Assembly (NCBI GenBank): GCA_910580185.1
Contig: CAJTWC010000001.1
Coordinates: forward strand, 99,532 to 163,531
Length of the DNA: 64,000 bases
Origin: an uncultured Bacilli bacterium
Lineage (GTDB): Bacteria; Bacillota_I; Bacilli_A; RF39; UBA660
Direction: 5' to 3'
Made by a program: the position numbers and the translations under genes. Position 1 is the stretch's first letter; the number at the start of each line of letters is the position of its first letter. The notes under the pieces were generated by a model that saw only the letters and a list, made by a program, of their open reading frames with translations, made no database searches and was not told the origin of the DNA. Below, one piece after another: positions 28,613-62,734 of the stretch.

Positions 28613-28865
28613 AAAAAACAGCAAATCATCCCCATAGGGACGAATAGCTGTTTATATCCGTGGTACCACCCAGTTTACTATTAATAAATAATAGTCACTT
28701 TAAGATATTTTAACGGGTTATCTTCCGTCTTAGCCTACTTTAATTAAATTTCGGTAAGATACTCCGAGGTGTTCTTTCTTTAAATTATCTTACTGATATT
28801 CCACCACCATCAGCTCTCTTTTAAGAATCATTTAAATACTTTTCCTCATCAACGTCTTTAAATAT
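28613..28865 (-). promoter_or_regulatory. T-box riboswitch leader
   Basis: Read on the minus strand. Promoter TTGTAA-16-TATAAT (28872-28899). Leader elements in order: GAUGAG K-turn, AGUA, AG bulge AGAGAG (28814-28819), distal loop GGUGGUGGAA, specifier loop GAAAGAACA (28770-28778), T-box UGGGUGGUACCACGG (28658-28672), then a terminator hairpin plus U6 (28613-28618) directly before the RBS. Confidence 0.85.
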
Positions 28866-29035: not shown

Positions 29036-29111
29036 TGGCGCTTCAAGTAGGACTCGAACCTACGACCTGCCGGTTAACAGCCGGATGCTCTACCAACTGA
29101 GCTATTGAAGC
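29036..29111 (-). tRNA. tRNA-Asn (GTT)
   Basis: GCTTCAATAGCTCAGTTGGTAGAGCATCCGGCTGTTAACCGGCAGGTCGTAGGTTCGAGTCCTACTTGAAGCGCCA. Cloverleaf with anticodon loop CTGTTAA, discriminator G and an encoded CCA. Confidence 0.95.
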
Positions 29112-29260
29112 ATAACTCTTTTTGAGGTACAAACAAATTATATATTAATTAAATATCTTTGTCAACAACTTTTTTTAATTTTTTTCTTTACTTAATTATA
29201 TTATATATATTAATACATATTACTAAAAAATATATGGACATGTAATAGATGAAACTATTT

Positions 29261-30751
29261 TTATTTAGCTTCATCTATTTTTATGCTATAACATGCTGGT
29301 CCTTTAACTACGTTACCATCTATATCAAACCTAGAACCATGGCAAGGGCAATCCCAAGTTTTATCAACTTCATTGAAGGTTAAAAAACATTTTAGATGCG
29401 GACATATATTAGATACCGTGTGTTTATTTCCATCTTTATCAAAATAAACGCCTACTCTTTTACCATCTACTTTAGTTACACAAGCTTTATCTTTGTACCA
29501 AGAAGGATTTTTTTTAATCAAGTTAAAAGTATATGCCTTAGTATTAGAAAGCATTGTATTGGTCAAAAAGTTTTTGAATTTAATAATGTTCATACTTCTT
29601 GTAGGATCAAATACTTTTTCATATTTATTTTTTCTGTCTCTTATTAGGTCGTATAGTATTTTTCCTGCAATGGTTCCGTTAGTCATTCCCCAAGTGTTAT
29701 ATCCAGTTGCAATAAATGCGTTTTTATCTTCTTCTGATATTCTTCCTATAAGGGGCATGAAGTCGTTTGTCACAACGTCCATGTTAGTCCACTTATAATT
29801 AGGCGTTTTACCCGTTATGTCTTTTGCTTTATTTACGCATTCATCATAATTCTTTTTATAATTTAATTTGTCACATATCTTTGATGAATTATTTAAATAA
29901 ATAAAATAATTATCATTTTTATCATTATGATATCTAAAGGATATGGTTGGATAGTTACTAGTTATACCACATATATCTTTTGTTTCATCAACTTTAGTAG
30001 CGGTAATATATGACTTTTCCATATAGGTTTTAAATGGAATAAATCCTGGTATGGTAAAAAATGGGTAGCTGCATGCCACAACTATTTTTTTTGCTTTTAC
30101 TTCTTGGCCGTTTGCATATGCCACATAATAATTATCTTCTTTTTTTATTTTAGTTACCCTACTATTTTCATATGTTTTTATATTACTACTTTTTTTAATA
30201 GCTTTTAATAATCCTTTTAAATATTTAACTGGATTAAATACATATGTATTTTTAACTAAAATCATTCGTTTTATATCTTCATCCTTAATATTTGTAGAGT
30301 TAATATAATATTTAACTCCTAAAAGATTTAGTATTTCTTCTTCCTTATCAAACTTTTTTATTTCTTTATTATCTTTTGTAAAAGTAACTGCCTCGGTTTT
30401 AGTAAGATTACATTCTATATCATTATCTTTTACTATCTTTTTAACAAGTCTTATAGCATCTTTTTGAGCTTCGTAATAAAGTTTAGCAGTGTCAAAATCA
30501 AAAACATTATAAATATCTTGGTATTTTAAATCTTGTAAATAGGTTAATTTACCAGTACTTTTACAGGTCGCGCCAGTTAAAAACTTATCTGCTTCAAGCA
30601 AAATAATGCTGTGTTTTTCATCTATAAAATTATAAGCGGTGGTAATCCCGGTTATTCCTCCGCCTATTATAAGAACGTCGGTGCTCATTTTTTCACTTAA
30701 GTTTTCAAATTTAAGCTGTCCCGCATCTTTTTGCCATATACTTTTCCTCAT
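29261..30751 (-). CDS. FAD-dependent oxidoreductase with a C-terminal Rieske [2Fe-2S] domain (YhfW-like)
   Basis: N-terminal VLIIGGGITG; C-terminal CPHLKC...CPCHGSRF Rieske ligand motifs. Confidence 0.8.
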   Translation of the reverse strand: MRKSIWQKDAGQLKFENLSEKMSTDVLIIGGGITGITTAYNFIDEKHSIILLEADKFLTGATCKSTGKLTYLQDLKYQDIYNVFDFDTAKLYYEAQKDAIRLVKKIVKDNDIECNLTKTEAVTFTKDNKEIKKFDKEEEILNLLGVKYYINSTNIKDEDIKRMILVKNTYVFNPVKYLKGLLKAIKKSSNIKTYENSRVTKIKKEDNYYVAYANGQEVKAKKIVVACSYPFFTIPGFIPFKTYMEKSYITATKVDETKDICGITSNYPTISFRYHNDKNDNYFIYLNNSSKICDKLNYKKNYDECVNKAKDITGKTPNYKWTNMDVVTNDFMPLIGRISEEDKNAFIATGYNTWGMTNGTIAGKILYDLIRDRKNKYEKVFDPTRSMNIIKFKNFLTNTMLSNTKAYTFNLIKKNPSWYKDKACVTKVDGKRVGVYFDKDGNKHTVSNICPHLKCFLTFNEVDKTWDCPCHGSRFDIDGNVVKGPACYSIKIDEAK

Positions 30752-30845
30752 AAGTTATCACCAGTATTATTATGGTAGTTATTTACTTACTATATTCATG
30801 GCAAAAATAAAAAAACACCTAAGATAAACTTAAGTGTAATATTCT

Positions 30846-30922
<77 letters not shown>

Positions 30923-30936
30923 ATGTAAATTATAAA

Positions 30937-31029
30937 TGGCGGAGAAAGAGGGATTCGAACCCCCGCGCCGCTTGCGCGACCTCCCGGTTTTCAAGACCGG
31001 TCCCTTCAACCAGACTTGGGTATTTCTCC
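30937..31029 (-). tRNA. tRNA-Ser (TGA)
   Basis: GGAGAAATACCCAAGTCTGG...CCGGTCTTGAAAACCGG plus a long variable arm, ending TTTCTCCGCCA. Confidence 0.95.
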
Positions 31030-31130
31030 AACTTCATAATTATTATATGCAAAAATATAAAACATATAACAATTTGATAGCAATAAGATTATAACACACC
31101 TATTTTTTATTTGTCAATACATAAATTAGG

Positions 31131-31161
31131 TTTAAAAAACAGGCATATAATTATACCTGTT
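31131..31161 (-). terminator. Bidirectional-looking intrinsic terminator downstream of the CDF gene
   Basis: Hairpin AACAGG-12 nt-CCTGTT flanked by an A-run and a T-run. Confidence 0.55.
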
Positions 31162-31398
31162 AAAAAAGATTACTTTGCTAGCCACTTGGCTTATTAATTT
31201 CGTTTAATAAACCTTTAAACTAGCCTTCATATTGTTCACCCTCATTCATATATATTAATCTATAACTAATAATTATATTTATTTTTCTATATTTTGTACA
31301 TTATATCTTATTTTTCTATTTTCTCCACCTACCTTTCTATTTTAAGTATAAAATAAAAATATTAAATTATTATGTCAAAAGAAAAAGAAATTATTTTT

Positions 31399-32277
31399 TT
31401 AATTTCTTTCTCCAGGATTAACATGCACCATACAATGCTTTGTTGATGGTAATCTGTCTTCAATATTATCGTGGATGTTATGTGCAATACTATGCGCATT
31501 TAATACACTCATATTTTTATCTACCGAAATTTCTACATCTATATAGTAACGATTACCGAACTTTCTAGTTTTTAAATCATCTATTTTAACAACGTCCTTA
31601 CTTTCATAAATAATGTCTTCTATCTTTTTTATTGTTTCTTCATCACAAGATTTATCTATCATTTTATCTATTGCATCTTTAAATATGTCATAAGCAACTT
31701 TAATTATAAATAAACATATTATTATACTTGCTATAGAATCAAGCACCGGAAATCCTAATTTTGCACCTAGTATACCAATAAAACTTCCAACTGATGATAA
31801 AGCATCTGACCTATGGTGCCAAGCATCTGCTAGTAATGCACCTGAATTGATCTTTTTAGCGGTGTGTCTTGTATACCAATACATTGCCTCTTTTACTAAA
31901 ATAGACGTTACTGCAATAATAAGTGCTAAAGTACCAGATATTAAAATAACATATTTTCCTTTTATAATATTATTAACTCCAGTTACACCAATTCCAACAC
32001 CAGTTAACATAAGCATTACTGCTAATATAATAGAAGCTACACACTCTAACCTTTCATGACCGTATGGATGTTCTTTATCTGCCTTCTTATTTGATAATTT
32101 AACACCGATTATTACCACAATGGTACTTAATACATCTGATAACGAATGAATTGCATCAGATACCATCGCCTGTGAATGTGAAATAAAACCTGCAACAAAT
32201 TTTACTATTGTTAAAAATATGTTAGAGATTATACTAACAATTGATACTTTCATAGCATCTTTTTCATTATTGTTCAT
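31399..32277 (-). CDS. Cation diffusion facilitator (CDF) family metal efflux transporter
   Basis: Six TM segments, HSLSD and HHRSD motifs in TM2/TM5, and a C-terminal cytoplasmic domain. Confidence 0.85.
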   Translation of the reverse strand: MNNNEKDAMKVSIVSIISNIFLTIVKFVAGFISHSQAMVSDAIHSLSDVLSTIVVIIGVKLSNKKADKEHPYGHERLECVASIILAVMLMLTGVGIGVTGVNNIIKGKYVILISGTLALIIAVTSILVKEAMYWYTRHTAKKINSGALLADAWHHRSDALSSVGSFIGILGAKLGFPVLDSIASIIICLFIIKVAYDIFKDAIDKMIDKSCDEETIKKIEDIIYESKDVVKIDDLKTRKFGNRYYIDVEISVDKNMSVLNAHSIAHNIHDNIEDRLPSTKHCMVHVNPGERN

Positions 32278-32417
32278 AATAACCCTTCTTTCTTTATAGT
32301 ATATGTATATGAAAACATCTTGCGAAAAAAGTAATAACTAATCCCGCAAGATGTTTAATTCATCTGCTGCTTATTAAAAAGCCCGGCCTATTGCCTGATC
32401 TAACAATTTTATCGTGC
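32278..32417 (-). promoter_or_regulatory. Structured 5' leader with mutually exclusive hairpins upstream of the CDF gene (candidate metal-responsive attenuator)
   Basis: Promoter TTGACT-18-TAATAT (32424-32453). There is a perfect 12-bp stem AAACAUCUUGCG/CGCAAGAUGUUU (32313-32324 with 32345-32356) followed by U's. The same CAUCUUGC segment can instead pair upstream with GCAGCAGAUG. Confidence 0.4.
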
Positions 32418-32510
32418 CCTAAAATATTAACACATTAATTCATTAAAAGTCAATTTGTTTTTTGTATTTTTACATAAAAAAACTAACCCTTATGGTCAGT
32501 AATTTTTAAG

Positions 32511-32599
32511 TGGTGCCCGAGGCCGGACTTGAACCGGCACGAGGTTTAACACTCGCAGGATTTTAAGTCCTGTGCGTCTACCAATTCCGCCACTCGGGC
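32511..32599 (-). tRNA. tRNA-Leu (TAA)
   Basis: GCCCGAGTGGCGGAATTGGTAGACGCACAGGACTTAAAATCCTG plus a long variable arm, ending CCTCGGGCACCA. Confidence 0.95.
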
Positions 32600-32600
32600 G

Positions 32601-32676
32601 TGGTGTCCTGTATGCGACTTGAACGCATGACCCTCTGATTAAAAGTCAGATGCTCTACCGACTGAGCTAACAGGAC
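32601..32676 (-). tRNA. tRNA-Lys (TTT)
   Basis: GTCCTGTTAGCTCAGTCGGTAGAGCATCTGACTTTTAATCAGAGGGTCATGCGTTCAAGTCGCATACAGGACACCA. Confidence 0.95.
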
Positions 32677-32690
32677 ATACTACTAAAATT

Positions 32691-32765
32691 TGGTTGCCTC
32701 GGCAAGATTCGAACTTGCGCATGTCAGAGTCAAAGTCTGATGCCTTACCACTTGGCGACGAGGCA
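32691..32765 (-). tRNA. tRNA-Gln (TTG)
   Basis: TGCCTCGTCGCCAAGTGGTAAGGCATCAGACTTTGACTCTGACATGCGCAAGTTCGAATCTTGCCGAGGCAACCA. Confidence 0.95.
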
Positions 32766-32772
32766 ATCTAAG

Positions 32773-32856
32773 TGGTGGGGAGAGGTGGATTCGAACCACC
32801 GAACCCTAAGGAACAGATTTACAGTCTGCCGCGTTTAGCCACTTCGCTATCTCCCC
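32773..32856 (-). tRNA. tRNA-Tyr (GTA)
   Basis: GGGGAGATAGCGAAGTGGCTAAACGCGGCAGACTGTAAATCTGT plus a variable arm, ending CCTCTCCCCACCA. Confidence 0.95.
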
Positions 32857-32860
32857 ATAG

Positions 32861-32936
<76 letters not shown>

Positions 32937-32944
32937 ATAATAAA

Positions 32945-33021
32945 TGGTGGACGCTATAGGACTCGAACCTATGACCCCCTGCTTGTAAGGCAGGTGCTCT
33001 AACCAACTGAGCTAAGCATCC
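32945..33021 (-). tRNA. tRNA-Val (TAC)
   Basis: GGATGCTTAGCTCAGTTGGTTAGAGCACCTGCCTTACAAGCAGGGGGTCATAGGTTCGAGTCCTATAGCGTCCACCA. The six-tRNA operon has the promoter TTGACA-17-TATATT just upstream (~33043-33078). Confidence 0.95.
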
Positions 33022-55242: not shown

Positions 55243-55767
55243 TTATTTTATATTAAATAAGGTTATTAACTTACCAACTTTAAACACTATCTTATCCGCA
55301 TTCTTAATCGCCACTTTTTTAAATATCGCTTTACCACCAACCGTTAAAGATGAAATTAAAGCAGCTAGTATTATACTAACTAAAGTACTATTTATACCGC
55401 TTTTAGAAGATAAACTAATGGATAATATCGCTCCAATTGATCCTGATATAATACCACATACATCTCCTACTATATCATTACATAATGATGATATTTTATT
55501 ACCATTCTTAACTATGAAAACACATTGTTTAGCACCTTTTATTTTTTTCGAGTTTAAAGCATGAAAGCTAGACTCCTTGGCAGTTATTGAAGATGTTCCA
55601 ATAACATCGAATAAAATACCAATAGATATAGTTACTAAAAGTATTATAAACAATACTAAATCATTAAAATTAGCAGCCATAGAATTAGATACAAAGCTAA
55701 AAATAATTGATAATATAAAAGTTAATATAAAAACTATTAATATCCAATTATCTTTTTTATTTTTCAT
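55243..55767 (-). CDS. Small polytopic membrane protein (weak resemblance to the DUF21/CNNM transmembrane domain)
   Basis: 174 aa with four or five hydrophobic spans. The DUF21 likeness is by eye only. Confidence 0.6.
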   Translation of the reverse strand: MKNKKDNWILIVFILTFILSIIFSFVSNSMAANFNDLVLFIILLVTISIGILFDVIGTSSITAKESSFHALNSKKIKGAKQCVFIVKNGNKISSLCNDIVGDVCGIISGSIGAILSISLSSKSGINSTLVSIILAALISSLTVGGKAIFKKVAIKNADKIVFKVGKLITLFNIK

Positions 55768-55779
55768 AAAGCCTCCTAA

Positions 55780-56285
55780 TAAAAAAACTTTAACAACAAG
55801 TTAAAGTTAGTTTTTCTGTATGGTATATTACAAATCAACTTTACGGCTTTGGTCGAGTTGAATTTCTCTTTCCAGTACTCAAGATTACTCTTAAAGCACT
55901 TTCGTTTTAAACCGGAAAACTATCTGTTGCCATAAATAGTTACTCGATTACCACTTAGTCCGCACTTTAATACTTGTAATATATACACGCTAGAGGTTTT
56001 CCCTAACAAAAGTGACTATTCTTATATGCTTTTGCATTTGATATTTCATTAATTATTCTAAATCCCTACCAAACACTCACATCATGTACGTTATTATATT
56101 ATTTCAGTGACGTGATAAAAGGAATTATCAGCTGCATGCCATTGCAGTTATCCTTAAATCTTAAATCTTATTAACACCCTAACTTGGGCAGAAAAAGCAT
56201 TAATAAGAAGTGTCATTCGACAATTGGTAGATTTTTAGGCCTACCTTCAAATAGTATAATGACTAGCATAATGCACCACACATGA
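55780..56285 (-). ncRNA. ~500-nt ORF-free transcript from a consensus promoter to an intrinsic terminator; long structured leader/riboswitch candidate for the 55243-55767 gene
   Basis: Promoter TTGACT-17-TATAAT (56291-56319, minus strand). No ORF of 60 aa or more in any frame. Composition is visibly less AT-rich than other spacers. Terminator AACUUUAAC-5 nt-GUUAAAGUU plus U7 (55781-55808) lies 4 nt before the RBS GGAGG. Upstream GUAAAGUU (55837-55844) can pair with the terminator 5' arm instead, and is itself sequestered in the hairpin at 55835-55861. Confidence 0.5.
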
Positions 56286-56400
56286 CCAAAATTATAGCAT
56301 ATTACTATCTAAAAGTCAATTTTCAGATATCATACTACAATTTATTATATTCATAGTATAAACAAATTAATACTTGAAAATACTATTAATGGAGGTAAAA

Positions 56401-56568
56401 ATGATGAATGACGATAATAAATCAATAAAATGCAATGTTGAATCTTGTAAATACAATAATAGCAATGACAACTATTGCACTTTAAATGAAATAAAAGTTA
56501 GTTGCACATGCGATTCATGTGATGCTTGTAAAAAAGAAACGATTTGTGATAGTTTTAAAGAAAAATAA
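56401..56568 (+). CDS. Small Cys-rich protein, DUF1540-like
   Basis: 55 aa from the ATG behind the RBS GGAGGT (the track ORF starts at an upstream TTG). It contains two copies of the pattern KC.V.SC.Y....C....I.V. Confidence 0.6.
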   Translation: MMNDDNKSIKCNVESCKYNNSNDNYCTLNEIKVSCTCDSCDACKKETICDSFKEK

Positions 56569-56640
56569 AAAATTATAATATTTTTTAGTTTATTAATAAG
56601 TTTTATTGAATAAATATAATTGATATTGTATAATATAAAT

Positions 56641-56716
56641 GAAGGAAGCAACTTACTAGTTGTTTTCCAAATTGTTTTTTGTAAAACAAGGCTAGCTTTA
56701 ACTAACCTTGTTTTTC
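56641..56716 (+). ncRNA. Predicted ~75-nt small RNA, module A (antitoxin-like)
   Basis: Promoter TTGAAT-17-TATAAT (56606-56634). 5' hairpin GGAAGCAAC-UUACUA-GUUGUUUUCC. Terminator ACAAGG-14 nt-CCUUGU plus UUUUUCUU. No ORF with an RBS. Confidence 0.55.
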
Positions 56717-56806
56717 TTATATACTAAAAATAATAACTAGTACTATTATAAGTATTAAAATGATAATTAATTTTGGACTAAATTTTATTTCAAATCTAAA
56801 TCTCAT
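56717..56806 (-). CDS. Unannotated 29-aa hydrophobic peptide, module A (type I toxin-like)
   Basis: MRFRFEIKFSPKLIIILILIIVLVIIFSI. SD GGAAGGTGGTGG lies 5 nt upstream of the ATG. The stop abuts the shared terminator. Confidence 0.55.
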   Translation of the reverse strand: MRFRFEIKFSPKLIIILILIIVLVIIFSI

Positions 56807-56943
56807 AATTACCACCACCTTCCTATTCTTCATAAAAAGATGGAAAACAAAGCTAGCTTTCTACTGCTTCCTATATAATTATTAGCCATGAATTTTAAAA
56901 TTCCACTAAAAATACGAAAAAAGTTGAACTTTTTTAAACTCTT

Positions 56944-57984
56944 TTATATTTTGATTTGTTTAAGCATAGCTATACCATTAGTATTTTCAGGATTATCTTT
57001 TTCTATTAACGATATATAAAAATTTATTGCTCTATTCCTTCCTTCAGTCTTATGCTGCAAAGCATCTATTTGTCTTAAAACACCATCTTCGCTAATACAA
57101 TATCTATATAAATCTATCATTTTATCAAATCTACTAATTTCTATTTCATTTTTAAATAGAAAAAATATAAGAGGTCTTCCTGTTTCATAATACCTTTCCT
57201 CCCAATTATCATCACAATACCTATTATCTTCTAGATAATCTTCTAATATACTACAATTATTTTCTTTTACTATATGATATAGTAAATCAACTAATATATT
57301 CTTTTGCTCAAAAGTTAAATCTCCATAAACACTTTCATTCATTGCAAAATTTGCTATTCCTGCCACAATACTTGAACCATTGCTAAGCATTTGATAATTA
57401 GTCCTTTTATCTAATATCAGCTTTCTAGTAACATTATTTATATTTTTGTGATCAAACATACACCAAAATGGTTCATAACTTGCTAAAATTTTTCTTGTAT
57501 TAGGGTTAAAAAGACCTCTATCTATTAAATTTTTATACATATCATAGAATTCTTGTTTATCCCATTTTATCCTATTTAATAATAAATAAATTGGATCTGT
57601 ATCACCTTTATCAATTTTAATTTCCCAATACAAATCATAAGAATTAACATATTTATAAAATTCATAGTTTTTTGCATCTTTAAAATCAACCATAGTCCAT
57701 TCATAATCAAATATTTTATTTTCTAACCCATTAAGAATATATTCCCATTTGCTTTTGATCAATTTATCTAAATCATCTAAACTATCTGATAAGTTGACAT
57801 TAAACAAATTATTTGCAATTTCTGTGTTTTTTTCTTTAAATCTCAATGTACCATTATATTTACTATCATACATATATTTTTTGTTTAATTCGTTTCTTTG
57901 CTCTAATCTAATTTTACATAAATCAACATTGTATCTTATTGTTAACATTATTAAAAAGTTAAAATATTCTTCTTTTGGATTCAT
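56944..57984 (-). CDS. Orphan 346-aa protein bracketed by the two module copies
   Basis: Long ORF with the RBS AGGTG. I recognise no family, TM segment or signal peptide. Confidence 0.65.
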   Translation of the reverse strand: MNPKEEYFNFLIMLTIRYNVDLCKIRLEQRNELNKKYMYDSKYNGTLRFKEKNTEIANNLFNVNLSDSLDDLDKLIKSKWEYILNGLENKIFDYEWTMVDFKDAKNYEFYKYVNSYDLYWEIKIDKGDTDPIYLLLNRIKWDKQEFYDMYKNLIDRGLFNPNTRKILASYEPFWCMFDHKNINNVTRKLILDKRTNYQMLSNGSSIVAGIANFAMNESVYGDLTFEQKNILVDLLYHIVKENNCSILEDYLEDNRYCDDNWEERYYETGRPLIFFLFKNEIEISRFDKMIDLYRYCISEDGVLRQIDALQHKTEGRNRAINFYISLIEKDNPENTNGIAMLKQIKI

Positions 57985-58083
57985 AACTACACCTATAAAT
58001 TAATACCATTTATTATAAATTATTTAAATATTTTTATCAATATAAATATTGAATAAACATAACTGCTATTGTATAATATAAAA

Positions 58084-58165
58084 GAAGGAAGCAACATTAC
58101 TAGTTGTTTTCCAAAATGTTTTCAAATTGAAAAACAGAGCTAGTTACCCACTAACTCTGTTTTTC
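58084..58165 (+). ncRNA. Predicted ~80-nt small RNA, module B
   Basis: Promoter TTGAAT-17-TATAAT (58049-58077). Same 5' hairpin as copy A. Terminator ACAGAG-15 nt-CUCUGU plus a U-run. Confidence 0.55.
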
Positions 58166-58255
58166 TTATATACTAAAAATAATAACTAGTACTATCATAA
58201 GTATTAGAATGATAATTAATTTTGGACTAAATTTTATTTCAAATCTAAACCTCAT
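58166..58255 (-). CDS. Unannotated 29-aa hydrophobic peptide, module B
   Basis: MRFRFEIKFSPKLIIILILMIVLVIIFSI, one substitution relative to copy A. SD AGAAGGGTGGTG. Confidence 0.55.
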   Translation of the reverse strand: MRFRFEIKFSPKLIIILILMIVLVIIFSI

Positions 58256-58376
58256 AAATATCACCACCCTTCTATTTTTCATAAAAAGATGGAAAACAAA
58301 GCTAGTTTCTACTGCTTCCTAATTAATTGTTAGTCATAAATTTTAAAATTCCCCTATTTTTTTAATAAAAAAAAGA

Positions 58377-59312
58377 TTATTTAAACATTTTTCCTAAATA
58401 ATCTTCTTTTTTATTTCCATTTATAAAATCTTTTATATTCATTTTCTTTTTACCTGGAACTTGCAGTTCAGTAATAATTATACTACCATCTTTAGTTACT
58501 ACTTCCATGCCATTTTTATCTAAATTAACTATTGTTCCAGATTTTTCATTATATTTTTTATTACCTATTTTTGATAACCATAATTTAATGTTTTTATCTT
58601 CTAGTGTAGCATATGCTCCCGGCCAAGAATTAAGTCCTCTTATCTGATTGTATATTTCTTTTGAAGTCTTATTAAAATCCACGTGTTCTTCTTGTCTTGA
58701 AACATTATAAGCATAAGTTGCTTCATCTTCATTTTGTTTTTCTCTTTTATTAGTACCATTAATTATACTAGGCAATGTATCCATTAAAAGTGGAACTGCT
58801 ACTTTACTTAATTTATCGTGAAGTATTTCTACTGTATCAGTACCTTCTATTTTAATTTCTACTTTTGAAATTATATCTCCAGTATCCATTCCTTTATCCA
58901 TATACATAATAGTTATTCCTGTTTTATCATATCCATATATAATAGATTTATGAATAGGCGCACCTCCCCTTAATTTTGGAAGAAGTGAAGCATGAACATT
59001 AATACATCCAAAACGTGGTGCATTAAGAATTTCTTCTGGAACAATTTGTCCATATGCACAAGTTATTATGATATCTGGTCTTAAACTAATTATTTCTTCA
59101 TAATCTTCTTTTATTTTTATTGGTTGAAATACTTTTATATTATGTTCTAAAGCTAGCTTCTTTATTGGAGAATAAACTACCTCTTTTTTTCTTCCGACTT
59201 CTTTATCAGGTTGTGTTACAACCAAAAGTACGTTACACGTTTTTATTAACTCATCTAATATTGGAACACAAAACTCTGGTGTACCCATAAATATTACCTT
59301 TAAATCCTTCAT
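58377..59312 (-). CDS. fmt: Methionyl-tRNA formyltransferase
   Basis: FMGTPEF N-terminus and the HASLLPKLRGGAPI motif. Confidence 0.95.
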   Translation of the reverse strand: MKDLKVIFMGTPEFCVPILDELIKTCNVLLVVTQPDKEVGRKKEVVYSPIKKLALEHNIKVFQPIKIKEDYEEIISLRPDIIITCAYGQIVPEEILNAPRFGCINVHASLLPKLRGGAPIHKSIIYGYDKTGITIMYMDKGMDTGDIISKVEIKIEGTDTVEILHDKLSKVAVPLLMDTLPSIINGTNKREKQNEDEATYAYNVSRQEEHVDFNKTSKEIYNQIRGLNSWPGAYATLEDKNIKLWLSKIGNKKYNEKSGTIVNLDKNGMEVVTKDGSIIITELQVPGKKKMNIKDFINGNKKEDYLGKMFK

Positions 59313-59347
59313 AAACCATCCTTCTTTCTAGAAAAAGAAACTTCTCT

Positions 59348-60391
59348 TTAGAAAAGTTTCAAAATATCTTTTATTGTTATAAATATCATAAGTGCAAAAA
59401 GTAGCATTAATCCTATGTTATTTACTATTGCATCTACTTTAGGATTTACTTTTTTATCTGTTATTTTTTCAAATAATATTACAACCGCACGATATCCATC
59501 GAATGCTGGAAATGGTAATAAATTAATAAATCCAACGTTTATTGATAAATATGCTAATAAGTATAATAGTCCAGATAATCCTGCTTTACTTTGAGCTCCT
59601 ACTATTGTATATATTCCAACAGGACCAGATAATGCACCTACTCCTATTTTACCAGTAACTAAAGCTTTAATGGTAACTATCATGGAATTAAAAGTAGAGC
59701 CAAACTTACTAGTAGCGTATTTAAATGCATTTCCTATACCATGATACTTAGTACTATCTAATCCCATACCATATGAATAAGAAACATTGCCATCTTTGTC
59801 TTTTATTTTCTTTGGCGTTACTTTTATGTTTTTTTCTTTACCATCATTAGTTTCAATAGTAATATTTTGAGCATTACTATTATCTGCTAATGTAAGTGTT
59901 AAAGTAACATCATCCCAAGTTCTTGTTTTCTTACCATTTATCTTTAATATTTTATCACCTGTTTTAAGTCCCGCTTTTTCACAAGCAGAATCTTTGGCAA
60001 CCTCTCCTATTATTGGTTTAGTTGTATAAGAGCCATAACATAAAGCCATGATAAATAAAACTACAAAACCTAGTATAAAGTTATTGATAACACCTGCCAA
60101 TACAATGATTAACTTTTTATACCAAGGTTTATTATACATCTTTTTATCCTTTGGAACATTTGTGTCATCATCAACTTCTTCTCCAGCCATAGCAACATAT
60201 CCACCAATTGGAATTAATCTTAAACAATATAAAGTTTCATCATTTTTTCTTTTAAATGAAAACAATTTAGGCCCAAAACCTAGTGAAAATTCATAGCAAT
60301 AAACTCCTGATTTCTTTGCCCAGAAAAAATGTCCTAGTTCATGAATAAAGACAATTATTCCTAGCATTAATATAAAATATATTAAAGTCAT
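59348..60391 (-). CDS. rseP: Site-2 (M50) intramembrane zinc metalloprotease with a PDZ domain
   Basis: HELGHF in TM1, a central PDZ domain and a C-terminal LDG-type motif (AFDGY). Confidence 0.9.
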   Translation of the reverse strand: MTLIYFILMLGIIVFIHELGHFFWAKKSGVYCYEFSLGFGPKLFSFKRKNDETLYCLRLIPIGGYVAMAGEEVDDDTNVPKDKKMYNKPWYKKLIIVLAGVINNFILGFVVLFIMALCYGSYTTKPIIGEVAKDSACEKAGLKTGDKILKINGKKTRTWDDVTLTLTLADNSNAQNITIETNDGKEKNIKVTPKKIKDKDGNVSYSYGMGLDSTKYHGIGNAFKYATSKFGSTFNSMIVTIKALVTGKIGVGALSGPVGIYTIVGAQSKAGLSGLLYLLAYLSINVGFINLLPFPAFDGYRAVVILFEKITDKKVNPKVDAIVNNIGLMLLFALMIFITIKDILKLF

Positions 60392-60400
60392 TTATTCCTC

Positions 60401-61174
60401 CTAAATAATACCTGATAATAAAATATATCCAATAATAACGAAAATAATACTATCTAATCTATCTAATACGCCACCATGCCCTGGCATTATATTAGAAAAG
60501 TCTTTTATATCATGATTTCTTTTTACTGCCGAGAAAAATAAGTCTCCTAATTGTCCTAAACATGATAAGAATAATGTGATTATAAGTAAACCAAGCACAT
60601 TAACATTTGAATCAATTGCTATATAATAGAACGTTGATGCACATAAAGTACCAAATATACCACCAACTATAGCCCCTTCCCAAGTTTTATTAGGAGAAAT
60701 TTTAGGAGCAAACTTATGCTTACCAACTAAAGTACCTGCTAAATGAGCATAAGTATCCGTTAACATTGTAATTAAGAATAAATATATAAATAACATTAAA
60801 CTTTTTTCTCTAATTACCGTAAACCCATAAAAAATAGTTCCAACTAGCATAGTCATACCAATAAGTTTAAAGGCCTCATCAGCATTATACTTTTTATTAT
60901 CATTACAATATATAACCGCAAGAAGTGGTACTAACATTGTTAAAAAATAATATATTTCTCTTTTTTCATTCATAAAAACAAGTAATATTGTAAGTGCATA
61001 AATAATTACATCAATATAAATTGGCCTTTTATTTTTATGAGGTAAATCTAAAAACTCCTTAATTCCTAACACCGCTAAAACACACGCTGCTATTTTAAGC
61101 CATATACCACCAACTATTATTAGTGGAATAAATATAGCTAAAGCAACTACCGCACTAATTAATCTTTTTTTCAT
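60401..61174 (-). CDS. cdsA: Phosphatidate cytidylyltransferase
   Basis: Polytopic membrane protein with the C-terminal signature SAVKRNHDIKDFSNIMPGHGGVLDRLDS. Confidence 0.9.
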   Translation of the reverse strand: MKKRLISAVVALAIFIPLIIVGGIWLKIAACVLAVLGIKEFLDLPHKNKRPIYIDVIIYALTILLVFMNEKREIYYFLTMLVPLLAVIYCNDNKKYNADEAFKLIGMTMLVGTIFYGFTVIREKSLMLFIYLFLITMLTDTYAHLAGTLVGKHKFAPKISPNKTWEGAIVGGIFGTLCASTFYYIAIDSNVNVLGLLIITLFLSCLGQLGDLFFSAVKRNHDIKDFSNIMPGHGGVLDRLDSIIFVIIGYILLSGII

Positions 61175-61285
61175 ATTTTCACATCCTTACTTTTTTATTA
61201 TAATACAATTAAAGATTTTTAACAATTAAATTGCGTTTTCAAGTATAATATTTACATTATTTTGTTATTATTGTATAATCTAATT

Positions 61286-61373
61286 AGTGAGAGCACCTAA
61301 CTTAAGGTTAGTAGCTTTCCTTAATGTTTGTTAAGGAAAAAGCGTACACCCCCCTGGGTAAGTACGCTTTTTC
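61286..61373 (+). ncRNA. Predicted ~90-nt small RNA, module C (divergent family member)
   Basis: Promoter TTTACA-17-TATAAT (61251-61279). 5' hairpin CCUAAC-UUAA-GGUUAG, second hairpin UUCCUUAA..UUAAGGAA, terminator GCGUAC-14 nt-GUACGC plus U5. Confidence 0.5.
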
Positions 61374-61375
61374 TT

Positions 61376-61456
61376 TTATATCTTAAATACTAGCATGGCT
61401 ATTATTATAAGTAAAAGAAGTATTATTACTCTAAGAAAACGTCTTTCTTCTTTCAT
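61376..61456 (-). CDS. Unannotated 26-aa hydrophobic peptide, module C
   Basis: MKEERRFLRVIILLLLIIIAMLVFKI. SD AGAGGGGTGGTG lies 6 nt upstream. Its own -10 TATAAT is at 61526-61531 (minus strand). Confidence 0.5.
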   Translation of the reverse strand: MKEERRFLRVIILLLLIIIAMLVFKI

Positions 61457-61591
61457 AATATCACCACCCCTCTATATTCATATTAGGATGGAAAGCATAA
61501 CTAACCCATTATTAGGTGTCCTCATATTATACTTCGCCATTATTTTATAAAATCCCCTAAAAAAATAAAAAAATTAGAATTTCTTCTAATT

Positions 61592-61840
61592 TTAGTATGA
61601 GTCAATATTAATATTTACTCTTTTATTATCATTCATATATGAGCTTGCTTGAACTATAGTTCTAAGCGCTTTTGCAAGCTTACCTTGTTTTCCAATTACT
61701 CTTCCCATTTCGCTTTCTGGAACCATTACTTGTATAGTAACTGTGTTTTCTTCCTCACTTGGGAATTCCTTAACGGTAATGCTATCAGCATCACAAACAA
61801 GTTCTTTTACTATTGTTTCTGTTAGTTTAATTAATTCCAT
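61592..61840 (-). CDS. khpA: KH-domain RNA-binding protein (YlqC/KhpA-like)
   Basis: 82 aa, GRVIGKQGKLAKALR KH motif, directly downstream of rpsP as in other Firmicutes. Confidence 0.8.
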   Translation of the reverse strand: MELIKLTETIVKELVCDADSITVKEFPSEEENTVTIQVMVPESEMGRVIGKQGKLAKALRTIVQASSYMNDNKRVNINIDSY

Positions 61841-62215: not shown

Positions 62216-62734
62216 CTATATAAAATCCTCTTTTACTTCTTCATCAATTTTTTTATTAATTGCCTCTTCATCATCATCCAGTGTTTCCCATGGTTCTTCG
62301 TCATCTTCAACCATAATTTTAACTTTTGTATCATTTACTATTTCTATTCCTAGCTCTTTTTCTATATCAAACTCTATTACATCATCCTTTATTTGTACGT
62401 TACTACAAGACGGTTGTTTTAAAGATCTTACTATTATGTCACTACCTAAAACAGATGTTCCCATTTTAGTTTTAACATTAACGGTTTCAGAATACGCTAT
62501 ATTTTTGCTAGCAACCGCTGTTTTTTTATCATCATCATAGGAATACCATATGTTTATGTCATAGTTTCCGTCAATGACAACTTTATCACCTACTACAGAA
62601 CCTTTAAAGTTATGATTTATAACCCAGCATCCTAAAATGGTATTAGCATTATGTTCTGCTAGTAAGTTATAATTATTTTTAAAATATTTTTTTCCTTTAC
62701 CTATTACTGCTTTTGTAACTATTTCTTTAAACAT
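62216..62734 (-). CDS. cotE: Spore coat morphogenetic protein CotE
   Basis: EIVTKAVIGKGKKYF, ILGCWVINHNFKG, YDINIWYSYDDDKKT and an acidic C-terminal tail parallel B. subtilis CotE as I remember it. Confidence 0.75.
   Translation of the reverse strand: MFKEIVTKAVIGKGKKYFKNNYNLLAEHNANTILGCWVINHNFKGSVVGDKVVIDGNYDINIWYSYDDDKKTAVASKNIAYSETVNVKTKMGTSVLGSDIIVRSLKQPSCSNVQIKDDVIEFDIEKELGIEIVNDTKVKIMVEDDEEPWETLDDDEEAINKKIDEEVKEDFI

What the first reader, a model, noticed from the sequence alone, without database searches (positions are those of the whole stretch)
61251..61557. Third, sequence-divergent copy of the same sRNA/peptide architecture between cdsA and khpA
The layout is the same as in copies A and B, but the primary sequence is different.

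Plus strand: promoter TTTACA-17-TATAAT leads to a ~90-nt RNA that ends at GCGUAC..GUACGC plus a U-run.

Minus strand: ORF 61376-61456 encodes MKEERRFLRVIILLLLIIIAMLVFKI, with SD AGAGGGGUGGUG and a -10 TATAAT at 61526-61531.

The two RNAs again start with homologous hairpins. The sRNA has GAGAGCACCUAAC-UUAA-GGUUAGUAGCUUUCC, and the mRNA has GAGGACACCUAA..GGGUUAGUUAUGCUUUCC. The mRNA again carries an anti-SD, CCAUCCU, which pairs with AGGGGUGG.

In copies A and B the corresponding stems are GCAAC/GUUGU and CCAUCUUUU/GGAAGGUGG. The pairings are therefore kept while the sequences differ. That covariation is the best in-window argument that the RNA structures are functional and that this is a gene family rather than a chance repeat.

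The terminator loop contains a C6 run (61349-61354) that partly complements the G-rich SD.
Basis: partly seen in the sequence, partly recalled or inferred. Interest (0 to 1): 0.7.

Follow-up and report, generated by a model that had tools for sequence, protein, structure and literature searches.

The report
New type I toxin-antitoxin family copy
The khpA-cdsA gap holds a small membrane-peptide gene facing an antisense small-RNA gene across a shared terminator, almost certainly a type I toxin-antitoxin module; it belongs to an undescribed family found so far only in uncultured gut Bacilli, a solid but not startling addition to a known class.

Summary
The module is real and it is not a chance repeat. 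A profile of the whole ~310-nt unit finds three copies in the window (A, B, C). It also finds nine more complete modules in four other MAG assemblies and one metagenome contig, including a copy in the same khpA-cdsA gap and a third subtype (D).

All 12 keep these parts:
- a near-consensus sRNA promoter (TATAAT invariant);
- a two-way terminator shared by both RNAs;
- a 26- or 29-codon ORF with no frameshift, whose differences are most frequent at third codon positions;
- an anti-SD/SD hairpin (97% of cells paired).

The layout is closest to par (Fst/RNA II) of Enterococcus. It is not a member of that family: the peptide lacks the Fst signature, and no sRNA complementarity covers the ribosome-binding site. 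Rfam, Pfam, NCBIfam and PHROGs recognise nothing.

Copy C is homologous to A and B, not merely analogous.

One new point: the mRNA 5' hairpin, the sRNA 5' hairpin and the terminator are sequence-related. This allows 5'-3' closure of the toxin mRNA.

Toxicity and transcripts are untested.

The parts
61251..61279 (+). sRNA promoter: -35 TTTACA (61251-61256), 17-nt spacer, -10 TATAAT (61274-61279)
   Evidence: The promoter scan scores it 11 of 12. All 13 sRNA genes of the family have an invariant TATAAT and a -35 matching 4-5 of 6 at 17-18 nt, while the spacers differ.
61285..61378 (+). Predicted antitoxin sRNA of about 93 nt. It has a 5' hairpin H1 (61289-61320), a middle hairpin H2 (61321-61337) and a terminator stem (61338-61373) followed by a U-run.
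   Evidence: Fold energy is -36.9 kcal/mol, z = -6.9. A covariance model finds orthologues at 68-111 bits. In the model alignment 95% of cells pair and 5 pairs changed on both sides, located in H2 and the terminator.
61333..61378 (.). Two-way intrinsic terminator shared by the converging sRNA and toxin mRNA. This is the only stretch where the two RNAs are perfectly complementary. It reaches only the stop codon of the ORF.
   Evidence: Inverted repeat 61333-61347 / 61362-61376, 93% complementary. Co-folding predicts a duplex of about 40 bp, with the dimer at -118.1 against -89.6 kcal/mol for the two monomers.
61376..61456 (-). Toxin ORF of 26 codons, MKEERRFLRVIILLLLIIIAMLVFKI: a charged N-terminus followed by one hydrophobic helix
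   Evidence: ORF list. Eight C/D-type orthologues keep exactly 26 codons. Summed pairwise differences by codon position are 150, 108 and 227, and replacements are mostly I/L/V/M or K/R. No Pfam, NCBIfam or PHROGs family matches.
61462..61493 (-). Anti-SD/SD hairpin: anti-SD CCAUCCU (complement of 61485-61491), loop with UAUGAA, SD AGAGGGGUGGUG (complement of 61462-61473); 5 nt separate the SD from the AUG
   Evidence: Predicted in all seven leaders folded. Across 12 leaders 97.2% of cells pair, against 58-75% when the partners are slid. The pattern occurs 3 times in the window against 0 expected.
61489..61523 (-). 5' hairpin region of the toxin mRNA (GAGGACACCUAAUAAUGGGUUAGUUAUGCUUUCC). It is homologous to the sRNA 5' hairpin and complementary to the mRNA's own 3' terminator region.
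   Evidence: Inverted repeat with 61288-61312. The duplex with the 3' terminator region is -27.1 kcal/mol, matched by 0 of 300 shuffles. The lowest-energy fold of the full-length mRNA is the closed 5'-3' form with 25 pairs.
61526..61566 (-). Toxin promoter region: -10 TATAAT (complement of 61526-61531) with a weak -35, plus a conserved upstream block TTTTTAGGGGATTTTATAAAATAATGG
   Evidence: Read directly from the sequence. The block is conserved in all 12 modules whatever the flanking genes. The promoter scan does not list it because the -35 fails.
56606..56915 (-). Copy A of the family (A-type, 29-aa peptide MRFRFEIKFSPKLIIILILIIVLVIIFSI; sRNA 56642-56718 on the + strand)
   Evidence: nhmmer E = 6e-60; sequence and ORFs. 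A 20-nt direct repeat joins a terminator arm to the mRNA 5' UTR: 56680-56699 / 56841-56860, 90% identical.
58049..58356 (-). Copy B of the family (A-type, peptide MRFRFEIKFSPKLIIILILMIVLVIIFSI; sRNA 58085-58167 on the + strand)
   Evidence: nhmmer E = 1e-65; sequence and ORFs. Direct repeat 58128-58145 / 58290-58307, 89% identical.

Best explanation
Module C is a chromosomal type I toxin-antitoxin locus of a family that has not been described.

**The toxin side.** The minus strand gives a toxin mRNA of about 185 nt, roughly 61520 down to 61333. It comes from a weak promoter and encodes a 26-residue peptide with a charged N-terminus and a single membrane helix. Its Shine-Dalgarno sequence is held in a conserved hairpin with an upstream anti-SD, so the mRNA is poorly translated as made. 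Its 5' hairpin region can also pair with its own 3' terminator region. That closes the molecule and hides both ends.

**The antitoxin side.** The plus strand gives an abundant sRNA of about 93 nt (61285-61378) from a near-consensus promoter. It converges on the same two-way terminator and is therefore perfectly complementary to the last ~45 nt of the toxin mRNA.

**Proposed action.** The two terminator hairpins pair to form a ~40-bp duplex. This most likely marks the toxin mRNA for cleavage by a double-strand-specific RNase and opens the 5'-3' closure. A second, imperfect contact then forms: between the related 5' hairpins in the C-type, or between the sRNA terminator arm and the mRNA 5' UTR in A and D types.

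**Shown:** the anatomy, its conservation, the coding signature of the ORF, the SD hairpin and the complementarities.

**Inferred:** both transcripts, toxicity, the RNase step and the order of pairing.
For: - **All parts are present at the stated coordinates**.
- **The whole unit is a conserved family.** There are 12 complete modules of three subtypes, in the window's genome, four other MAG assemblies and one metagenome contig. They lie between different housekeeping genes and at several copies per genome. L013 is an orthologue in the same khpA-cdsA gap, and other relatives have an empty gap of 101-156 nt.
- **The sRNA promoter is conserved.** TATAAT is invariant in 13 of 13 genes, while the toxin promoter is weak.
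- **The ORF is kept at exactly 26 or 29 codons without frameshift.** Differences are most frequent at third codon positions, and replacements are mostly conservative hydrophobic ones.
- **The SD hairpin is conserved:** 97% of cells pair in 12 leaders.
- **The sRNA structure is supported:** 95% of cells pair, and the covariation score is 0.179 against 0.100 in shuffles, reached by 0 of 500 shuffles.
- **A terminator duplex of about 40 bp is predicted**.
- **The mRNA 5' region is complementary to its own 3' end.** Values are -19 to -27 kcal/mol in 11 of 12 modules. The match is type-specific, and in copy C the closed form is the lowest-energy fold.
- **The layout matches what is published** for Gram-positive type I systems whose antisense RNA lies on the 3' side (PMC7472228, PMC8594479).
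Against: - No transcript, toxicity or RNase data exist for any member. All hosts are uncultured.
- The peptide matches no known toxin family, and the sRNA matches no Rfam antitoxin.
- No sRNA complementarity covers the SD or start codon beyond what shuffles give, so direct translational block by the sRNA is not supported.
- In copy C the SD hairpin is weaker than in its orthologues (7 + 3 bp with an internal loop), and the leader folds no better than shuffles (z = -0.28).
- The closed 5'-3' fold is the lowest-energy form only in copy C. It lies 1.3-4.5 kcal/mol above it in eight modules and 7-21 kcal/mol above it in three.
- Specificity between types for the contacts between the two RNAs is not clean.
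- The toxin mRNA start is uncertain and may cut short its 5' hairpin.
Confidence: 0.72

Rival explanations
1. It is a non-toxic small membrane protein gene with an antisense regulator. The 26-residue peptide would be an ordinary small membrane protein, for example a modulator of a transporter or sensor, and the converging sRNA would merely tune its level.
For: The ORF is clearly under coding constraint. Nothing links the peptide to a known toxin family. The modules sit among housekeeping genes rather than on mobile elements. None was found on plasmids, phages or viral contigs.
Against: - Each genome holds several diverged copies: at least 3 in the window, at least 3 in MGBC118889 and at least 2 in CANEGO01.
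- The antisense promoter is strong and conserved while the sense promoter is weak.
- The SD is permanently sequestered.
- Presence or absence varies at the same site between close relatives.

Together these are the signature of type I toxin-antitoxin loci rather than of a housekeeping small protein.
Confidence: 0.15
2. It is a dispersed intergenic repeat, in the manner of a MITE or REP element, made of hairpins. It would spread or persist as DNA or as a terminator/insulator cassette, and the ORF and 'sRNA' would be incidental.
For: - The unit is multi-copy and lies in intergenic gaps.
- It is built from three related hairpins.
- Each copy is preceded by a terminator-like hairpin with a T-run.
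- Short-read assemblies break inside it.
- Copies A and B flank a ~1.8-kb insertion.
Against: - No terminal inverted repeats lie at the limits of conservation. The promoters lie outside the internal inverted repeat yet are conserved with the unit.
- The ORF keeps its frame and length in 12 of 12 copies, with differences most frequent at third positions.
- The SD, its spacing and the AUG are invariant.
- The -10 of the sRNA promoter is invariant while the spacers drift.
Confidence: 0.06
3. The sRNA mainly regulates other genes. Its overlap with the peptide mRNA would be only a consequence of sharing a terminator.
For: The overlap reaches no coding sequence except the stop codon. In L031 an A-type sRNA with its terminator is joined to an unrelated 60-codon ORF. 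The sRNA is at least as conserved as the ORF.
Against: - The sRNA and the peptide gene occur together in 12 of 13 cases, and their subtypes match.
- The sRNA 5' hairpin changes together with the 5' hairpin of its own mRNA. Identity with the partner is 0.74-0.82, against 0.56-0.68 for all but one cross-type pairing; D sRNA against C mRNA reaches 0.75.
- In A and D types a direct repeat of 18-20 nt makes the sRNA complementary to the 5' UTR of its own mRNA.
Confidence: 0.07

Closest known systems
par of Enterococcus faecalis plasmid pAD1 and its chromosomal relatives (Fst toxin mRNA RNA I / antitoxin RNA II; also SprA1/SprA1AS of Staphylococcus aureus)
   Same: - The promoters converge.
- A single two-way intrinsic terminator supplies complementary terminator hairpins.
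- The antisense RNA lies on the 3' side and does not overlap the ORF.
- A stem-loop within the toxin mRNA sequesters the SD.
- A 5' helix hides the mRNA 5' end.
- In A and D types, a DNA direct repeat gives a second complementary region.
- Several diverged copies can share one genome.

Source for par: PMC7472228, read; PMC8594479, read.
   Different: - The peptide has the opposite layout: a charged N-terminus and a hydrophobic C-terminus. It has no conserved Trp, no charged tail and no PXXXG motif, and no Pfam hit.
- The second complementary region lies upstream of the anti-SD, not over the SD and start codon.
- In copy C that direct repeat is degenerate. In its place the two RNAs carry homologous 5' hairpins.
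- No Rfam antitoxin family matches.
Bacillus subtilis type I systems with overlap at the 3' end (txpA/RatA, bsrG/SR4, bsrE/SR5, yonT/SR6)
   Same: They are Gram-positive. The antitoxin sRNA converges on the 3' end of the toxin mRNA. The SD of the toxin mRNA lies in a double-stranded region. In those systems the antitoxin acts mainly by promoting mRNA decay (PMC3834814 abstract; otherwise my own knowledge).
   Different: - In those systems the overlap extends into the ORF, and the loci sit in prophage-like regions. Here the overlap stops at the stop codon and the loci lie between housekeeping genes.
- The only Rfam hint is SR6 at 20.2 bits against a threshold of 55, E = 6.3, which is chance level.
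- The peptides are unrelated.
hok/Sok of plasmid R1 and aapA1/IsoA1 of Helicobacter pylori (toxin mRNAs locked by 5'-3' long-distance pairing)
   Same: The full-length toxin mRNA can fold back so that its 5' end pairs with its 3' end while the SD stays sequestered. That 5'-3' long-distance pairing is a recognised feature of type I toxin mRNAs is stated in PMC8594479.
   Different: - Those are Gram-negative systems whose antisense RNA targets the 5' region.
- In aapA1 the anti-SD itself lies at the 3' end; here it is local.
- The 5'-3' pairing here rests on energy calculations and on type-specific complementarity only.

Membership tests
Type I toxin-antitoxin systems (general class) | A small hydrophobic peptide gene paired with an antisense RNA gene whose product can base-pair with the peptide mRNA | tested here: met
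   The ORF is 26 codons with a charged N-terminus and one hydrophobic helix. The converging sRNA gene shares the terminator. Co-folding predicts a perfect duplex of about 40 bp.
Type I toxin-antitoxin systems (general class) | The peptide is toxic when over-produced, and the RNA neutralises it | not testable with these tools
   This needs expression experiments. All hosts are uncultured MAGs.
Type I toxin-antitoxin systems (general class) | Elements within the toxin mRNA prevent premature translation (SD sequestered) | tested here: met
   The anti-SD/SD hairpin is predicted in 7 of 7 leaders folded. Across 12 leaders 97.2% of cells pair.
par / Fst-RNA II family | Convergent promoters and a shared two-way intrinsic terminator | tested here: met
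par / Fst-RNA II family | Direct repeats DRa/DRb transcribed in opposite directions, giving sRNA complementarity over the SD and initiation codon | tested here: not met
   The sRNA 5' part against the SD/start region pairs no better than shuffles in all 12 modules. Direct repeats exist in A, B and D types, but they lie upstream of the anti-SD. Copy C has none of 14 nt or longer.
par / Fst-RNA II family | Fst/Ldr peptide signature: a hydrophobic helix, then a conserved Trp and a charged C-terminal tail, with a PXXXG motif in the helix (PMC7472228) | tested here: not met
   The peptides have a charged N-terminus and end in the hydrophobic helix. They contain no Trp, Pro or Gly. No Pfam family is reported at E up to 10.
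par / Fst-RNA II family | The antitoxin RNA belongs to the Rfam families for known Gram-positive antitoxins | tested here: not met
   A permissive Rfam scan of 56300-61700 gives only SR6 at 20.2 bits (threshold 55, E = 6.3) and unrelated chance hits.
B. subtilis 3'-overlap systems (TxpA/RatA, BsrG/SR4, YonT/SR6) | The antisense RNA overlaps the 3' part of the toxin ORF | tested here: not met
   The sRNA's terminator U-run ends at about 61378. The ORF's stop codon is 61376-61378, so only the stop codon is overlapped.
hok/Sok-type or AapA1-type fold-back toxin mRNAs | Pairing between the 5' and 3' ends of the full-length toxin mRNA | tested here: inconclusive
   The complementarity is significant and type-specific. 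The closed fold is the lowest-energy form only in copy C; elsewhere it lies 1.3 to 21 kcal/mol above it.

The most novel reading that the evidence does not exclude
The family may work by hairpin mimicry. The toxin mRNA's 5' hairpin, the antitoxin's 5' hairpin and the shared terminator are diverged copies of one hairpin.

Under this reading the toxin mRNA closes on itself, 5' hairpin to 3' terminator, into an inert and nuclease-protected form. The antitoxin, which carries copies of both elements, invades at the terminator and then captures the released 5' hairpin. This would be a two-site strand exchange whose specificity is set by the hairpins changing together in each subtype. That would explain why A, C and D types can share one genome without cross-talk.
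Probability: 0.2. Interest if true: 0.6.

Novelty: new variant of a known kind. Interest (0 to 1): 0.45.

Why it matters
[quoted passage not shown] Known families cover few lineages, and none was found for these uncultured, spore-forming, 28% GC gut Bacilli in Rfam, Pfam, NCBIfam, PHROGs or one literature search.

This family adds a new peptide type and a new sRNA. It offers three subtypes that share genomes, which are natural material for studying RNA-RNA specificity. It also shares features with both par-type systems (shared terminator, direct repeat) and fold-back systems such as hok and aapA1.

In practice, the modules are repeats that break short-read assemblies. They also mark variable insertion sites between core genes.

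The family is a new example of a well-known class. It does not open a new question.

Tried and rejected
- **Loose leader pattern in IMG/VR.** It gave 8 hits, all in coding sequence and seven of them in one phage gene family. Rejected.
- **Strict and broadened leader patterns.** JGI metagenomes gave 0 hits and then one chance hit inside coding-looking sequence with no module around it. IMG/VR gave 0 hits.
- **blastn and tblastn against PLSDB plasmids and INPHARED phages.** No match.
- **Protein homology search with the peptides.** Exact look-up of the 38-aa ORF form found nothing on record.
- **Pfam, NCBIfam and PHROGs on the peptides.** Only chance-level hits. Pfam on the 346-aa ORF, the 60-aa ORF and the ~250-aa gap genes, and PADLOC on all but the 60-aa ORF, found nothing.
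- **RNAalifold on a MAFFT alignment of all sRNA types.** The consensus was meaningless because A and C types misalign. I replaced it with a covariance-model alignment of C and D types.
- **par-like sRNA pairing over the SD and start codon.** No better than shuffles.
- **C-run in the terminator loop as an anti-SD acting on the mRNA.** It does not change in step with the SD sequence across modules.
- **The upstream AUG in the SD-hairpin loop as the real start.** It is in frame in 9 of 12 modules but out of frame in copy C and in the D-type, and it has no SD of its own.
- **Terminal inverted repeats of a mobile element.** The internal inverted repeat lies inside the promoters, which are conserved with the unit.
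- **Look-up of the 346-aa ORF.** It returned only a 1.35-kb contig from sequencing run ERR3199547, which also yielded the window's own cdsA contig.
Full report
**1.

- On the plus strand, the promoter scan reports TTTACA-17-TATAAT at 61251-61279, with 11 of 12 consensus matches.
- From about 61285 to 61378 the plus strand folds into a 5' hairpin and a long terminator, GCGUAC...GUACGC followed by a U-run. The energy is -36.9 kcal/mol, z = -6.9, and none of 200 shuffles folds as well.
- The C6 run is at 61349-61354.
- On the minus strand, ORF 61376-61456 encodes MKEERRFLRVIILLLLIIIAMLVFKI.
- The SD AGAGGGGUGGUG lies 5 nt before the AUG, and CCAUCCU pairs with it in the predicted fold.
- A TATAAT sits at 61526-61531 but has no good -35.
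- The 'homologous hairpins' appear as an inverted DNA repeat, 61288-61312 / 61500-61524, 25 nt and 72% complementary.

Two caveats apply. The copy C leader alone folds no better than shuffles (z = -0.28).

**2. It is a family, not a chance repeat, and copy C is homologous to A and B**

Copies A (56606-56915) and B (58049-58356) have the same layout. All three share TTCCATC-N3-5-TATGAA-N5-9-GGTGGTG on the mRNA strand, 3 matches against 0 expected. So the leader of C is not sequence-divergent.

A stricter form of that pattern found seven loci in GTDB representative genomes, and all seven are complete modules.
- Five are C-type, with 26-aa peptides such as MKKETKFLKVIIILLILLLAILIFKI.
- Two are A-type, with MRFRFEIKISPK...
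- They come from four MAGs. Three are labelled uncultured Bacilli, Clostridium sp. and Muribaculaceae, and the fourth simply 'uncultured bacterium'. The Muribaculaceae label may reflect mis-binning, given the 26% GC of that locus.

A profile of the whole ~310-nt unit then recovered all of these. It also found a third, more divergent D-type just upstream of cdsA in loci L040 and L041, with peptide MKKEIIFLKVIIILLFCILVLLICKK.

L013 carries a C-type module in the same khpA-cdsA gap. Other relatives have an empty gap of 101-156 nt (L032, L033, L035) or unrelated genes there. The other modules lie between housekeeping genes at several places per genome.

Nothing was found in JGI metagenomes, IMG/VR, PLSDB plasmids or INPHARED phages.

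**3. What is conserved**

- *sRNA promoter.* All 13 sRNA genes have an invariant TATAAT and a -35 matching 4-5 of 6 at 17-18 nt, while the spacers vary.
- *ORF.* It is 26 codons in all eight C/D-type copies and 29 in all four A-type copies, with no frameshift. Summed pairwise differences by codon position are 150, 108 and 227 (C/D) and 7, 0 and 14 (A). Replacements are mostly I/L/V/M or K/R. This is a coding signature.
- *Anti-SD/SD hairpin.* It is predicted in every leader folded. Across 12 leaders 97.2% of cells pair, against 58-75% when the partners are slid by 1-3 columns.
- *sRNA structure.* A covariance-model alignment of the seven distinct C/D-type sRNAs gives 95% of cells paired, 5 pairs changed on both sides (shuffles 1.1; 1 of 500 as high) and a covariation score of 0.179 against 0.100 (0 of 500). 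The slid controls are far lower.

**4.

The pairs changed on both sides lie in the sRNA's middle hairpin and in the terminator. In the middle hairpin CCUUAA/UUAAGG becomes CCUUAG/CUAAGG, CCAU/AUGG or CCAAA/UUUGG.

The 5' hairpin H1 has none. Three of its pairs are broken in some sequences. Between A and C types its outer helix differs only by one-sided, wobble-compatible changes (sequences).

In the SD stem, copy C's C-G pair is one mutation away from the U-G found in six other modules, copy B among them.

With effectively three lineages, the support is real but modest.

The C-run/SD idea fails across the family. Modules whose SD is AAAGGUGG keep the same C-rich loop, and copy A has no C-run.

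**5. How the two RNAs can meet**

The only perfect complementarity is the shared terminator. Co-folding gives a duplex of about 40 bp, with the dimer at -118.1 against -89.6 kcal/mol for the monomers in copy C. The duplex stops at the stop codon.

The sRNA 5' part does not pair with the SD/start region better than shuffles in any module. So the translation-blocking contact of par is absent.

**6. Three related hairpins (new here)**

In A, B and D types a DNA direct repeat of 18-20 nt (85-90% identical) joins one terminator arm to the mRNA 5' UTR just upstream of the anti-SD. This makes the sRNA terminator region complementary to the mRNA 5' region, at -23 to -31 kcal/mol.

In copy C this repeat is degenerate. 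Its mRNA 5' segment is, by my reading of the sequences, closer to the D-type terminator arm (16 of 20). Instead the two 5' hairpins are homologous.

Identity between an sRNA's 5' hairpin and an mRNA's 5' hairpin is 0.74-0.82 within a subtype. Across subtypes it is 0.56-0.68, except D sRNA against C mRNA at 0.75.

In 11 of 12 modules the mRNA 5' region is complementary to the mRNA's own 3' terminator region, at -19 to -27 kcal/mol, matched by at most 3% of shuffles. The match is type-specific: -16 to -20 with the own type against -8 to -15 with another.

For copy C the closed 5'-3' fold, with 25 pairs, is the lowest-energy structure. It lies 1.3-4.5 kcal/mol above the minimum in eight modules and 7-21 kcal/mol above it in three. 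The SD stays paired in both forms.

I cannot tell which of three things this reflects: closure of the mRNA on itself, a second contact between the two RNAs, or only the duplication history of the hairpins.

**7. Most likely mechanism**

This is a type I toxin-antitoxin locus.
- The toxin mRNA is weakly transcribed and translationally silent: the SD is sequestered and the ends may be closed on each other.
- The antisense sRNA is strongly transcribed and pairs through the terminator hairpins.
- By analogy with Gram-positive systems whose antitoxin overlaps the 3' end, that pairing directs decay of the toxin mRNA.
- The related 5' elements probably give a second, specificity-setting contact.

The anatomy, conservation and complementarities are shown. 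The transcripts, toxicity, the RNase step and the order of events are inferred.

**8. Comparison with known systems**

The layout is closest to par of pAD1 and its relatives. Those have convergent promoters, a two-way terminator, a stem-loop sequestering the SD, a 5' helix and direct repeats (PMC7472228). As in Fst/RNA II and SprA1/SprA1AS, the antisense RNA is on the 3' side and does not overlap the ORF (PMC8594479).

Membership fails on two tested features.
- The peptide lacks the Fst/Ldr signature: it has no Trp, no charged C-terminal tail and no PXXXG motif, and its charge layout is the reverse.
- The repeat-derived complementarity does not cover the ribosome-binding site.

Other searches also came back empty. 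Rfam in permissive mode gives only SR6 at 20.2 bits against a threshold of 55. NCBIfam and PHROGs give nothing meaningful. A literature search for type I systems in Erysipelotrichaceae returned nothing, though the host's taxonomy is known only as 'Bacilli' MAGs.

**9. Verdict**

The module is real and conserved, and it is most likely a type I toxin-antitoxin locus of an undescribed family with three subtypes. It is a new variant of a known kind. It should interest people who work on toxin-antitoxin systems and sRNAs, mainly for the three related hairpins and the subtypes that coexist in one genome. It is not surprising in kind.

Noticed in passing
window 55804-56295 (-): A full-length OLE (ornate large extremophilic) RNA, 234 bits against a threshold of 50. 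It lies next to a 174-aa ORF rich in hydrophobic residues (55243-55767, minus strand), about 300 nt from module A.
   Followed up: no
window 56569-58376: Modules A and B, in the same orientation, flank a 346-aa ORF (56944-57984, minus strand) that has no Pfam or PADLOC hit. In relatives L043-L048 fmt is followed directly by the DUF1540 gene, so A-ORF346-B is an insertion of about 1.8 kb. A short-read contig carrying the ORF (L050, 1352 nt) extends only 117-194 nt past it on either side.
   Followed up: partly
window 61175-61591; L013, L025, L031, L032, L033, L035, L038, L040, L041, L043-L046: The khpA-cdsA gap is a variable hot spot among close relatives. It can be empty (101-156 nt), or hold a C-type module, or hold one or two ~250-aa genes with no Pfam hit. 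In L040 and L041 a D-type module sits before cdsA, preceded by ~230-aa genes of unknown function rather than khpA.
   Followed up: partly
L031 6642-6914: An A-type sRNA gene with its terminator is joined to an unrelated 60-codon ORF (MSKKEEVSETK...IGSIFYFNNKKKQG). That ORF has its own TTGACG promoter and no anti-SD leader. The antitoxin half of the module appears to have been recombined with a different small-protein gene.
   Followed up: partly
window 61532-61566 (-), and the same position in all 12 modules: A conserved block lies upstream of every toxin mRNA: TTTTTAGGGGAATTTTAAAAGTTATGGMTAAT. It contains a G-rich AGGGG in 28% GC DNA and a start codon at a fixed position, which opens a mini-ORF of 4-20 codons. 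It could be promoter elements, a leader ORF or an operator.
   Followed up: partly
window 56833, 58282 and the SD-hairpin loops of other modules: The AUG in the conserved UAUGAA loop of the SD hairpin is in frame with the toxin ORF in 9 of 12 modules, giving forms of 35-38 aa. It is out of frame in copy C, where it opens a 6-codon ORF ending in UGA, and in the D-type.
   Followed up: partly
L036 161-226: A degenerate sRNA-like remnant (27.9 bits with the sRNA model) lies upstream of cdsA in a contig whose CdsA is identical to that of L035. L035 has an empty gap.
   Followed up: no
L019-L023, L050: Short-read contigs of the same species end 120-155 nt into module C, or just outside ORF346. The modules act as repeats that break assemblies.
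   Followed up: no
window 62216-62734 (-); 28633-28861 (-); 29039-33021 (-): A CotE spore-coat homologue (Pfam CotE on the identical gene in L018) implies a spore-forming host. There is also a T-box leader (147 bits) and nine tRNA genes, six of them in a tight cluster at 32514-33021.
   Followed up: no
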